A DNA stretch of 32,000 nucleotides, from the NCBI GenBank assembly GCA_004563595.2, contig CP042461.1, positions 630,001-662,000 of the forward strand, read 5' to 3'. How positions within the stretch are numbered: position 1 is the stretch's first letter; every line of letters begins with the position of its first letter. The DNA is from Candidatus Saccharimonadota bacterium. Its GTDB lineage: Bacteria > Patescibacteriota > Gracilibacteria > BD1-5 > UBA6164. The notes under the pieces were generated by a model. It ran no database searches. It was not told the origin of the DNA and saw only the letters and a program-made list of their open reading frames with translations. Position numbers and translations under genes: made by a program. Shown here piece after piece: positions 11,366 through 13,259 of the stretch.

Positions 11366-11540
11366 GAATATCCTCCATGTAGTTTATTTAATGTATTCTT
11401 TTGTTATAGAATACATACTTATTTATACTAATTTTTTTTATAAAATCAATTCATTGATTTGCTATAATGGTTCTCTCTTTTTTAAAACTCTCTTTTTCTT
11501 TTGCAAAACATCTATTTTCTATATAATTTTAATGCTTTCT

Positions 11541-11617
11541 AAGGACCTAGCTTAATTAGAAGAGTGCTCGGATTCCGACCCCGAGAAGCGTACGTGCAAT
11601 TCGTGCGGTCCTTGCCA
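11541..11617 (+). tRNA. Atypical tRNA-like gene with encoded CCA; probable anticodon CCG (Arg)
   Basis: Perfect 7-bp acceptor stem AAGGACC/GGTCCTT, discriminator G, then CCA. T arm is GTACG-TGCAATT-CGTGC. Anticodon stem is CTCGG/CCGAG with a 9-nt loop ATTCCGACC, or a 7-nt loop TTCCGAC if A.C closes it. The D stem is weak (G.T, C-G, T-A, T.G), and the loop AATTAGAA lacks GG. Confidence 0.55.
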
Positions 11618-11632
11618 TATAAATTTTAAGCC

Positions 11633-11671
11633 AAAAACCACTTATTTTCAAGAAAAAAATAGGTGGTTTTT
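11633..11671 (+). terminator. Long hairpin plus T-run after the tRNA
   Basis: aaaaaCCACTTATTTT-caagaaa-AAAATAgGTGGttttt. Confidence 0.65.
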
Positions 11672-11711
11672 ATAATATACTAGTATTTTTATATATTATG
11701 TGTTTACTTTT

Positions 11712-13160: not shown

Positions 13161-13220
13161 TAGATCTCTATGAAAAAACCTTAAATAGCTATATTTTACT
13201 TATATTTTCTCTTCTGCACT

Positions 13221-13251
13221 AAAAAGCACAGGATAAAATCCTGTGCTTTTT
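13221..13251. terminator. Bidirectional intrinsic terminator between convergent genes
   Basis: aaaaaGCACAGGA-taaaa-TCCTGTGCttttt. Confidence 0.8.
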
Positions 13252-13259
13252 AGTTTTTC

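What the first reader, a model, noticed from the sequence alone, without database searches (positions are those of the whole stretch)
11541..11617. tRNA-like gene with a perfect acceptor and T stem but a non-canonical core: 9-nt anticodon loop, T-loop UGCAAUU, D-loop without GG
The acceptor stem (7 bp, starting with the rare A1-U72), discriminator G and encoded CCA are textbook, and the T stem is sound. Three things are not.
- The T loop reads TGCAATT, so G replaces the near-universal U55.
- The D loop AATTAGAA lacks the G18-G19 pair that docks onto 55 and 56. A18/G55 may be a covarying replacement, while G19/C56 is kept.
- The anticodon stem CTCGG/CCGAG encloses 9 nt (ATTCCGACC). A canonical 7-nt loop UUCCGAC (anticodon CCG, Arg, with U33 and A37) needs an extra A.C pair.
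Expanded anticodon loops are associated with altered decoding, which matters in an organism that has already reassigned a codon. It could instead be a tRNA-like element used as an integration target.
Basis: partly seen in the sequence, partly recalled or inferred. Interest (0 to 1): 0.6.

Follow-up and report, generated by a model that had tools for sequence, protein, structure and literature searches.

The report
Odd tRNA reading CGG as tryptophan
This is a real, strongly conserved but oddly built tRNA of an uncultured Gracilibacteria (BD1-5) bacterium that already reads TGA as glycine. It almost certainly inserts tryptophan, not arginine, at the rare codon CGG, a code change only tentatively predicted for this group.

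Summary
Window 11541-11617(+) is a 77-nt tRNA gene with anticodon CCG, A1-U72, G73, encoded CCA, T loop UGCAAUU and D loop AAUUAGAA. It has 5 Watson-Crick anticodon-stem pairs around 9 nt.

The same gene occurs once per genome in 70 of 96 genomes (25 of 29 genera) of the family. All 66 titled records found are Gracilibacteria or Patescibacteria, some labelled Peribacteria. All four helices show compensatory changes.

The "9-nt loop" is a family trait of another kind. There is one extra nucleotide after the D stem, a covarying Watson-Crick pair at 26:44, and a 31:39 position that pairs in 26 of 60 variants. In this genome's lineage that position is A·C.

The host reads TGA as Gly. Whole-genome codon comparisons among three tRNA-bearing genera put CGG opposite Trp (39 times) and never opposite Arg or Lys. 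CGA behaves as Arg. A sister genus without the tRNA uses CGG as Arg.

Only this tRNA and tRNA-Trp(CCA) carry A1-U72 plus G73. So ARAGORN's "tRNA-Arg(CCG)" is functionally a tRNA-Trp(CCG). The role of the odd core is unresolved, and no tRNA cognate to CGA was found.

An earlier finding of this scan (e1-2925659, another BD1-5 genome) reached the same reading. Shulgina & Eddy 2021 predicted CGG=Trp for two genomes of this order.

The parts
11541..11617 (+). tRNA gene, 77 nt, anticodon CCG, CCA encoded; functionally a Trp-type tRNA reading CGG
   Evidence: ARAGORN; Rfam tRNA 39.6 bits; 60 distinct homologues with compensatory changes; covariance model R1 scores it 99.2 bits.
11541..11547 (+). 5' half of the acceptor stem (AAGGACC). 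It pairs with 11607-11613 (GGTCCTT). A1-U72 is invariant; the discriminator G73 is at 11614 and CCA at 11615-11617.
   Evidence: A1-U73col 60/60, with pairs 2, 5, 6 and 7 covarying; in G000 and G005, A1:U72 plus G73 occurs only here and in tRNA-Trp(CCA).
11554..11561 (+). D loop AATTAGAA (A at position 18, then G19, A20, A21). It is flanked by a D stem with two invariant wobble pairs, G10·U25 and U13·G22.
   Evidence: The pattern scan required part of this motif, so its invariance there is partly by construction. The BLAST-found set of 19 genera shows the same motif, with A18 replaced by C in some.
11567..11585 (+). Anticodon arm. The extra Watson-Crick pair is C11567:G11585 (canonical 26:44 position). 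Four further pairs follow, then the A11572·C11580 opposition at canonical 31:39, and the loop UUCCGAC.
   Evidence: all six positions of helix 27-32:40-45 covary. The closing position is A·C in 31, U·G in 12, C-G in 10, A-U in 2 and U-A in 2 of 60. ARAGORN drawing.
11575..11577 (+). Anticodon CCG, invariant in all 85 genes found, with U33 and A37
11595..11601 (+). T loop TGCAATT: G in place of the near-universal U55, with T54, C56 and A58 kept
   Evidence: it is the only tRNA of G000 and G005 with G at 55.
11500..11527 (+). Promoter-like site TTTGCA-16 nt-TATAAT, ending 13 nt before the tRNA 5' end
   Evidence: This is a consensus match only (4 found against 3.5 expected in shuffles), so it is weak on its own.
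11632..11672 (+). A+T-rich hairpin followed by a T run, 15 nt after the CCA; probable intrinsic terminator
   Evidence: Sequence. Hairpin alignment shown incidentally. Not called by the terminator scan because its stem has too few G-C pairs.

Best explanation
The gene encodes a functional elongator tRNA with anticodon CCG that the cell's single tryptophanyl-tRNA synthetase charges with tryptophan. It reads the rare codon CGG as Trp, so it is the molecular agent of a CGG Arg-to-Trp reassignment in most genera of this Gracilibacteria (BD1-5) family, on top of TGA=Gly.

Shown:
- It is conserved under selection as a cloverleaf.
- It is the only tRNA cognate to CGG.
- CGG lies at Trp positions in genomes that carry it and at Arg positions in a sister genus that lacks it.
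- It shares A1-U72 plus G73 only with tRNA-Trp(CCA), while the genome's Arg tRNAs have G1 and A73.

Inferred:
- Charging by TrpRS goes through G73, A1-U72, C34 and C35.
- ArgRS rejects it even though C35, G36 and an A at the naive position 20 remain.
- The fixed oddities of the core act as anti-determinants against ArgRS and/or tune strict G-only reading, because CGA must stay Arg. These oddities are A18/G55 at the elbow, A15 opposite C48, two G·U pairs in the D stem, the extra nucleotide with a Watson-Crick 26:44 pair, and A·C at 31:39 in this lineage.
For: Real tRNA.

Distribution:
- 70 of 96 family genomes and 25 of 29 genera, one copy each, 90-105 bits.
- 66 titled records, all Gracilibacteria, Patescibacteria or 'Peribacteria', including HOT-871, GN02-872 and UBA6164.

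Genetic code:
- TGA is 4.0% of codons and GGN 3.1%.
- TGA aligns to Gly 5152 times out of 6122.

CGG = Trp:
- Codons opposite CGG in the G000/G005/G017 pairwise comparisons: Trp 39, other residues 22 (mostly F, Y, L, I), Arg or Lys 0.
- RelA CGG468 aligns to the conserved W of the PSxDW motif in B. subtilis Rel.

CGA = Arg:
- 47 R and 10 K of 75.
- RelA R302 (RFKDYI motif) and the helicase NYRS motif.

Natural control: G018, from genus g19, which has the tRNA in 0 of 13 genomes. There CGG aligns to R 27-30 and K 13-21, and to W only 0-2. The CGG codons of G000, G005 and G017 align to TGG in G018.

Identity. One TrpRS, one TyrRS, and one ArgRS with the N-terminal D-loop-binding domain.

Ancestry hint: outside the family, model R1's best hits are tRNA-Trp(CCA) genes at 55-62 bits, against 54-55 bits for genuine tRNA-Arg(CCG).

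Literature: Codetta calls CGG=Trp in 2 and '?' in 6 of the low-GC BD1-5 genomes, and all carry only tRNA(GCG) with or without tRNA(CCG) (PMC8629427, Figure 4-source data).
Against: - No expression, aminoacylation or proteomic data exist, so the amino acid is inferred from codon alignments.
- The tRNA keeps C35, G36, G73 and an A at the naive position 20. These are all the classical ArgRS determinants, so some Arg charging (ambiguous decoding) cannot be excluded.
- A36, a TrpRS determinant in E. coli (my knowledge of Himeno et al. 1991, as cited in PMC8629427), is replaced by G36.
- CGG counts are small, 15-23 aligned sites per genome pair, and the three comparisons share sites.
- In TGA-free, probably foreign genes such as PurB, CGG and CGA sit at Arg positions.
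- Nothing tested here shows that the odd core has any function. It could be tolerated drift in a tRNA serving about 1.5 codons per 10,000.
Confidence: 0.88

Rival explanations
1. It is what ARAGORN labels it: a structurally odd tRNA-Arg(CCG) that reads CGG as arginine.
For: Anticodon CCG with C35 and G36, G73, and an A at the naive position 20. ArgRS has its D-loop-binding N-terminal domain. In foreign TGA-free genes CGG aligns to Arg.
Against: - In native genes of three genera, CGG never aligns to R or K, and it aligns to W 39 times.
- The sister genus without this tRNA uses CGG as Arg.
- All true Arg tRNAs here have G1 and A73, whereas this one has A1-U72 and G73 like tRNA-Trp.
Confidence: 0.05
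2. It is charged ambiguously with both Trp and Arg, so CGG is a dual-meaning, near-extinct codon in an intermediate stage of reassignment.
For: Determinants of both synthetases coexist in one molecule. CGG is very rare, at 1.1-1.5 per 10,000 codons. Foreign genes still carry CGG at Arg sites.
Against: CGG sites are conserved as CGG or TGG across genera, including invariant-Trp motifs. None is shared with Arg or Lys codons, which argues that Trp is the selected meaning.
Confidence: 0.06
3. It is a tRNA-like element with a job outside decoding: a pseudogene, an integration (att) site, or a frameshift or quadruplet decoder using the 9-nt loop.
For: It is the lowest-scoring tRNA of the genome and is missed by filtered searches. 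G55 and A18 break the usual elbow contacts. This genome's copy has a 9-nt loop.
Against: - Compensatory changes occur in all helices, and the anticodon, U33, A37, G73 and CCA are invariant.
- It is single-copy, with RuvC synteny and no integrase.
- 26 of 60 variants have a normal 7-nt loop.
- CGG codons are in frame at Trp positions.
- Its presence or absence tracks the meaning of CGG.
Confidence: 0.01

Closest known systems
Trp-type tRNA(CCG) and tRNA(UCG) of Absconditabacteria (SR1), with the Codetta prediction that some Gracilibacteria read CGG as Trp (Shulgina & Eddy 2021, eLife 10:e71402, PMC8629427)
   Same: - Same class of UGA=Gly bacteria and the same codon, CGG to Trp.
- Low GC and very rare CGG.
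- tRNA(CCG) with G73 and A1-U72.
- The paper's source table lists tRNA(GCG)+tRNA(CCG) and no tRNA(UCG) or tRNA(ACG) for low-GC BD1-5 genomes, including HOT-871, GN02-872 and UBA6164.
   Different: - In SR1, CGA and CGG both become Trp and a tRNA(UCG) exists. Here CGA stays Arg and no tRNA(UCG) exists.
- For this family the paper called CGG=Trp in only 2 genomes and '?' in 6.
- By the paper's rule (G73 and no A20), this tRNA is not cleanly Trp-type.
- I found no description of the G55/A18 elbow or of the extra nucleotide with the 26:44 pair in the papers searched.
- The D-arm/T-loop pattern scan of 185,579 species returned no record titled Absconditabacteria or SR1.
CGG to Trp reassignments in Anaerococcus and Onthovivens/UBA4855 (Bacillota), same paper
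   Same: A dedicated tRNA(CCG) with Trp features reads CGG while CGA remains Arg, in low-GC genomes.
   Different: Those lineages read CGA with tRNA-Arg(ICG). Here there is neither an ACG nor a UCG anticodon. The lineage and the tRNA body are unrelated.
tRNAs with six-pair anticodon stems: tRNA-Pyl, tRNA-Sec, mammalian mitochondrial tRNA-Ser(UCN) (my knowledge)
   Same: A sixth stacked pair lengthens the anticodon stem at the expense of the 26/44 hinge and the variable loop. tRNA-Pyl also lacks G18G19 and the T-Psi-C sequence.
   Different: Here two nucleotides (U8, A9) still separate the acceptor and D stems, the D loop has 8 nt, and the variable region keeps 4 unpaired nt. There is no sequence relationship, and it serves a standard amino acid.
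tRNAs whose anticodon-stem length or closing pair tunes C34 wobble. Examples: 4-bp anticodon-stem tRNA-Trp(CCA) reading UGA and the 'extended superwobble' hypothesis (PMC13092985); the broken closing pair in tRNA-Thr(CGU) next to a reassigned ACA codon (bioRxiv 10.64898/2026.04.02.715157)
   Same: A C34 tRNA with an altered anticodon stem (A·C at the closing pair) sits next to an NNA codon of different meaning.
   Different: That NAR paper reports all Absconditabacterales tRNA(CCG) as having 5-bp stems and does not treat this family. Here reading of CGA by the CCG tRNA would be harmful, so the direction of any effect is unknown.

Membership tests
Bacterial elongator tRNA (Rfam RF00005) | Cloverleaf with a 7-bp acceptor stem, D, anticodon and T arms; score above the Rfam gathering threshold | tested here: met
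   39.6 bits against a gathering score of 29; ARAGORN call; covariation in all four helices.
Bacterial elongator tRNA (Rfam RF00005) | Conserved elbow nucleotides G18, G19 and T54-Psi55-C56 | tested here: not met
   A18-G19 and T54-G55-C56. This is invariant across the family except in G021, and unique among the 35 tRNAs of the genome.
Bacterial elongator tRNA (Rfam RF00005) | Five-pair anticodon stem, 7-nt loop with U33, and a single nucleotide 26 | tested here: inconclusive
   U33 and a 7-nt loop register are present. There is, however, one extra nucleotide, a Watson-Crick 26:44 pair, and A·C at 31:39 in this genome.
tRNA-Arg (bacterial ArgRS identity set: A20, C35, G/U36, A/G73) | C35, G36 and a purine at 73 | tested here: met
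   Sequence. Note that the genome's own three Arg tRNAs all have A73 and G1.
tRNA-Arg (bacterial ArgRS identity set: A20, C35, G/U36, A/G73) | A20 presented in a normal D loop | tested here: inconclusive
   An A occupies the naive position 20 of AAUUAGAA, but the loop lacks G18 and its partner U55, so the numbering and geometry are uncertain.
tRNA-Arg (bacterial ArgRS identity set: A20, C35, G/U36, A/G73) | Its codon occupies arginine positions in proteins | tested here: not met
   Arg or Lys 0 times and Trp 39 times opposite CGG among G000, G005 and G017. CGG aligns to the conserved W of RelA.
tRNA-Trp (bacterial TrpRS identity set: G73, A1-U72, C34, C35, A36) | G73 with A1-U72 | tested here: met
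   Invariant in 60 of 60 variants. Shared only with tRNA-Trp(CCA) in G000 and G005.
tRNA-Trp (bacterial TrpRS identity set: G73, A1-U72, C34, C35, A36) | Anticodon CCA (A36) | tested here: not met
   The anticodon is CCG. C34 and C35 are kept, and position 36 is G.
tRNA-Trp (bacterial TrpRS identity set: G73, A1-U72, C34, C35, A36) | Its codon occupies tryptophan positions; presence of the tRNA tracks that meaning | tested here: met
   Genus g19 lacks the tRNA (0 of 13 genomes) and its member G018 uses CGG as Arg.
tRNA-Trp (bacterial TrpRS identity set: G73, A1-U72, C34, C35, A36) | Aminoacylation with Trp by TrpRS | not testable with these tools
   Only one TrpRS gene is present. Charging itself needs an experiment.
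Trp-type tRNA(CCG) of CGG-reassigned bacteria, by the rule of Shulgina & Eddy 2021 | G73 and no A20; A/G1:U72 as supporting evidence | tested here: inconclusive
   G73 and A1:U72 are met. The 'no A20' criterion is not clearly met, and the authors abstained where the D loop is unusual.
Expanded-anticodon-loop frameshift suppressor tRNAs | An 8-nt or larger anticodon loop as the constant, functional feature; quadruplet or shifted reading | tested here: not met
   26 of 60 family variants have a closed 7-nt loop. CGG codons are in frame at conserved Trp sites.

The most novel reading that the evidence does not exclude
The non-canonical core is not drift. It is the device that lets a bacterium without inosine split the CGA/CGG pair between two amino acids.
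- The remodelled elbow (A18/G55, A15 opposite C48) hides a tRNA that still carries C35, G36 and A20 from ArgRS.
- The lengthened or mismatched anticodon arm confines it to CGG.
- A co-evolving tRNA-Arg(GCG) with C32-C33 takes over CGA by an unprecedented G34·A reading.
Probability: 0.15. Interest if true: 0.85.

Novelty: new variant of a known kind. Interest (0 to 1): 0.58.

Why it matters
Sense-codon reassignments in bacteria are few, and all of them are predicted computationally.

**What this tRNA adds to the published prediction**
- For this family the published call was 'Trp' in two genomes and '?' in most others.
- The tRNA, its Trp-type acceptor end and the codon alignments turn that into a family-wide case.
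- A built-in natural control supports it: one genus lacks the tRNA and reads CGG as Arg.

**Practical consequences**
- Table-25 annotation of these genomes puts Arg where the cell puts Trp.
- Annotators will name the gene tRNA-Arg, and filtered searches can miss it.
- Foreign standard-code genes carrying CGG will be mistranslated.

**Why the molecule itself is interesting**
- It is a natural tRNA that works without U55 and G18.
- It has an extra nucleotide at the D/anticodon hinge.
- It carries the determinants of two synthetases at once.
- That makes it a ready-made test object for identity rules and for tRNA engineering.

**The question it raises**
Which tRNA reads CGA as Arg when there is no UCG or ICG anticodon?

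Tried and rejected
1. **Code 4 (TGA=Trp, Mollicutes).** I rejected it because TGA is 4% of codons, tRNA(UCA) has Gly identity (G1-C2-G3, U73), and TGA aligns to Gly. The Mollicutes paper PMC3711424 therefore does not apply.

2. **PDB alignment of PurB (L028).** It suggested CGA and CGG are both Arg. The gene has no TGA at all and is probably foreign, so I set it aside and used native genes.

3. **A weak tRNA-model hit at window 13183-13252** (19 bits). It is a bidirectional terminator hairpin.

4. **Search for a hidden CGA decoder.**
   - ARAGORN at 85% thresholds and with introns gave two 'tcg' candidates.
   - Both have poor stems. One lies inside an ORF, and neither is conserved in G005, so both are false positives.

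5. **Codon comparison on the 66 8-kb loci with stop-to-stop ORFs**. It is noisy because of shadow frames (CGA opposite Leu). I use it only as weak support.

6. **Integration-site reading.** Rejected: no integrase, and the neighbours are housekeeping genes.

7. **Fetching the rest of G018 and several low-scoring family variants.** The G018 result therefore rests on its first 400 kb.

8. **Origin from tRNA-Arg or from tRNA-Trp.** The D arm resembles the generic Arg/Lys type, while model R1 prefers tRNA-Trp(CCA) slightly over tRNA-Arg(CCG). I regard the origin as unresolved.

Full report
**1. What is there**

Window 11541-11617(+) reads:
- AAGGACC-TA-GCTT-AATTAGAA-GAGT-G-CTCGG-ATTCCGACC-CCGAG-AAGC-GTACG-TGCAATT-CGTGC-GGTCCTT-G-CCA.

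- ARAGORN reports one tRNA in the window, tRNA-Arg(ccg), 77 nt.
- The Rfam tRNA model scores it 39.6 bits (gathering score 29) when a 361-nt region is searched.
- The match is lost to the speed filters in the whole-window search and in the whole-genome search.
- The genome's other 34 tRNAs score 45-76 bits.
- The single-sequence fold is the cloverleaf with five anticodon-stem pairs and a 9-nt loop, at z = -1.89.

**2. It is a gene under selection**

- BLAST of the 77 nt against 40 relatives found full-length, gap-free matches of 71-95% identity in 18 genera of the same family.
- A pattern scan of one genome per species (185,579 species) returned 66 records. All are titled Gracilibacteria, Patescibacteria group or (mislabelled) Peribacteria. 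They include 'Candidatus Gracilibacteria bacterium HOT-871' (CP017714), GN02-872 and UBA6164.
- Together these sets give 85 genes and 60 distinct sequences. All are 77 nt and all have anticodon CCG.

On this alignment:

| Measure | Observed | Control |
|---|---|---|
| Cells paired | 96.6% | 81.1% in shuffles |
| Pairs changed on both sides | 13 of 22 | - |
| Covariation score | 0.439 | 0.140 in shuffles; at most 0.109 with slid partners |

- A covariance model built from the alignment finds exactly one copy, at 90-105 bits, in 70 of 96 genomes and 25 of 29 genera of the family.
- Caveat: the pattern scan required part of the D arm and the T loop, so their invariance in that subset is partly by construction. 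The BLAST- and model-based sets show the same motifs.
- RuvC lies next to the gene in 34 of 66 loci.
- The window neighbours are GroEL, pilin-like genes, RuvC, a DUF84 NTPase and an ABC-type ATPase, with no integrase.
- A promoter-like TTTGCA-16-TATAAT ends 13 nt upstream. An A+T-rich hairpin with a T run follows the CCA.

**3. Anatomy in family context**

The sixth position of the anticodon helix (columns 32:40) has these states among the 60 variants:

| State | Count |
|---|---|
| A·C | 31 |
| U·G | 12 |
| C-G | 10 |
| A-U | 2 |
| U-A | 2 |
| C·A | 2 |
| A·A | 1 |

- The five pairs above it all covary.
- In canonical numbering the loop is the normal 7 nt (Y32 U33 C34 C35 G36 A37 M38), and the A·C lies at 31:39.
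- The top pair (columns 27:45; C-G 30, A-U 16, U-A 13) occupies the place of the 26:44 hinge.
- One extra unpaired purine lies between it and the D stem. ARAGORN draws it the same way.

Also invariant: G10·U25 and U13·G22 in the D stem; A14, A15, G19, A20 and A21; C at the last variable position, opposite A15; T54, G55, C56 and A58; G73; and CCA.

The elbow occurs in three natural states:
- A18(C18)-G19 with G55-C56, in the main family.
- G18-A19 with U55-C56, in G021 (L173).
- G18-G19 with U55-C56, in a 72-bit homologue from another family of the class (G069, L174).

The G069 homologue already has A1-U72, G73, the six-pair stem and 77 nt. The Trp-type acceptor end and the long stem are therefore older than the elbow change. 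Positions 18 and 55 change together.

**4. The organism and its code**

- The window lies in a 1,343,103-bp single-contig genome with 28.9% GC.
- TGA makes up 4.0% of codons in long ORFs and GGN only 3.1%.
- The 'tRNA-Trp(tca)' of ARAGORN has G1-C72, C2-G71, G3-C70 and U73, which is glycine identity.
- TGA aligns with Gly codons of a relative 5152 times out of 6122.
- This is code 25, in agreement with the record titles.

**5. What CGG and CGA mean**

I fetched two complete relatives from other genera that carry the tRNA: G005 (1,048,296 bp) and G017 (1,184,529 bp, the length of CP017714). I aligned best-hit ORFs, masking CGA and CGG as X. Codons opposite CGG in conserved contexts, besides CGG itself:

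| Comparison | Residues opposite CGG |
|---|---|
| G000 vs G005 | W 3 and W 7 |
| G017 vs G000 | W 10 and W 3 |
| G017 vs G005 | W 8 and W 8 |

- The remainder are F, Y, L, I, M and a few others, 22 in all.
- Arg and Lys appear 0 times.
- For comparison, TGG aligns to W about 85% of the time, and AGA aligns to R 77% and K 12%.
- The sites are listed, for example ELSGFGVE[W/CGG]DFVELPSQ and HGIKMHRV[CGG/W]GIDYD.
- Against solved structures, CGG468 of RelA/SpoT aligns with the conserved W of PSxDW in B. subtilis Rel.

CGA behaves as Arg:
- R 47 and K 10 of 75.
- R302 in the RFKDYI motif of RelA.
- The R of NYRS in a UvrD-type helicase.

CGG is very rare, at 1.1-1.5 per 10,000 codons.

**6. A natural control**

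- Genus g19 lacks the tRNA in all 13 genomes. Genera g135 and g136 lack it too.
- G018 has 35% GC and uses CGG at 12 and CGA at 70 per 10,000 codons.
- Its CGG aligns to R 27-30 and K 13-21, and to W only 0-2, in the three comparisons.
- The CGG codons of G000, G005 and G017 align to TGG of G018 (5 of 6, 4 of 4 and 3 of 6).
- A g19 genome (G156) carries tRNA-Arg(GCG) followed by tRNA-Arg(UCG).
- So within one family the meaning of CGG follows the presence of this tRNA.

**7. Identity**

- In G000 and G005 the combination A1:U72 plus G73 occurs in exactly two tRNAs: tRNA-Trp(CCA) and this one.
- The Arg tRNAs (GCG, UCU, CCU) have G1 and A73.
- The genome has one TrpRS (TIGR00233, 252 bits), one TyrRS, and one ArgRS with its N-terminal D-loop-binding domain.
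- The tRNA also keeps C35, G36 and an A at the naive position 20, so rejection by ArgRS is inferred, not shown.
- Outside the family, the model's best hits are tRNA-Trp(CCA) genes at 55-62 bits, ahead of genuine tRNA-Arg(CCG) at 54-55 bits.
- This mildly favours a tRNA-Trp ancestry, but it partly reflects the shared identity nucleotides.

**8. Comparison with the literature**

- Shulgina & Eddy 2021 (PMC8629427) reported CGA+CGG to Trp in Absconditabacteria. They noted that some Gracilibacteria are predicted to read CGG as Trp.
- Their source table for order BD1-5 lists, for the low-GC genomes, no tRNA(ACG), tRNA(GCG) present, no tRNA(UCG) and tRNA(CCG) usually present.
- In that table CGA is Arg or '?', and CGG is Trp in two genomes (UBA5194, UBA6489) and '?' in six, including HOT-871.
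- My genome-wide comparison settles HOT-871-length G017 as CGG=Trp.
- The NAR 2026 survey of anticodon-stem lengths mentions only Absconditabacterales tRNA(CCG), describing them as 5-bp.
- I found no description of the G55/A18 elbow or of the extra hinge nucleotide.
- An earlier finding of this scan on another BD1-5 genome (e1-2925659) reached the same reading. I saw it only after my own analysis.

**9. Open problems**

(a) No tRNA with anticodon UCG or ACG exists in G000, G005 or G017, yet CGA is Arg.

(b) The tRNA-Arg(GCG) of these genomes has C32-C33 (loop CCGCGRA) instead of U33.
- This form occurs in 48 of 96 family genomes, never in g19, g135 or g136.
- It is polymorphic with YUGCGRA inside tRNA(CCG)-bearing genera.
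- Whether it bears on CGA reading is speculation.

(c) TGA-free, probably foreign genes are enriched in CGA and CGG at Arg positions. They would be mistranslated at CGG.

**Verdict**

This is a real, family-conserved tRNA that is functionally tRNA-Trp(CCG). It is the decoder behind a partly published CGG-to-Trp reassignment, and it has a non-canonical core that has not been described. The role of that core is unknown.

Noticed in passing
G000:C1:324996-325071 (minus strand; L256:1501-1576), outside the window: tRNA-Arg(GCG) has C32-C33 (loop CCGCGGA) instead of the near-universal U33. The CCGCGRA form is in 48 of 96 family genomes. It is in none of the genera lacking the Trp-type tRNA(CCG) (g19, g135, g136), which have CUGCGAA. 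It is polymorphic with YUGCGRA within some tRNA(CCG)-bearing genera, and other families of the class have UUGCGGA.
   Followed up: partly
whole genome G000, and G005 and G017: CGA behaves as an Arg codon at invariant Arg sites (RelA RFKDYI, helicase NYRS). Even so, no tRNA with anticodon UCG or ACG is found by ARAGORN, relaxed ARAGORN or the Rfam model. CGA is almost extinct in G005 (2 in 225,506 codons) but runs at 6.7 per 10,000 in G000.
   Followed up: partly
G000:C1:255263-256882 (L028, PurB) and other purine-synthesis genes at about 251-313 kb: 71 long ORFs have almost no TGA and carry CGG at 9.6 and CGA at 40.6 per 10,000 codons, against 1-2 and 5-8 in native genes. PurB has 0 TGA in 539 codons, and its CGA and CGG align to Arg of eukaryote-type adenylosuccinate lyases. 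These are probably acquired standard-code genes that would be mistranslated at CGG.
   Followed up: partly
G000:C1:431944-432021 (minus strand): A 78-nt tRNA(CAU) also has an extra nucleotide after the D stem and an A·C opposition closing the anticodon stem, plus A1-U72 and A73. G005 has a 77-nt counterpart with the same A·C. It is one of four CAU tRNAs, and its identity (Met or Ile2) was not worked out.
   Followed up: no
G018 (genus g19), first 400 kb: L286-L305: This genus of the same family has 35% GC against 23-29% in the others. It lacks the tRNA in 13 of 13 genomes, uses CGG as Arg, and uses CGA ten times more often. One of its genomes (G156) has tRNA-Arg(UCG).
   Followed up: partly
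L120:4754-4830 and L120:5461-5537 (JAQTWP010000009.1): One Gracilibacteria MAG carries two diverged copies of this tRNA about 700 bp apart. Their acceptor stems differ and both are compensated.
   Followed up: no
L174:1501-1577 and 1671-1744 (G069, another family of the class): A 77-nt tRNA(CCG) has A1-U72, G73 and a six-pair anticodon stem but canonical GG and TTCGAAT loops. It lies directly upstream of tRNA-Arg(CCU). This suggests the Trp-type CGG reader is older than the elbow change and occurs outside this family.
   Followed up: no
window 13218-13256: A perfect hairpin (GCACTAAAAAGCACAGGAT...ATCCTGTGCTTTTTAGT) lies between convergent genes and acts as a bidirectional terminator. It produced a spurious 19-bit tRNA-model hit.
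   Followed up: yes
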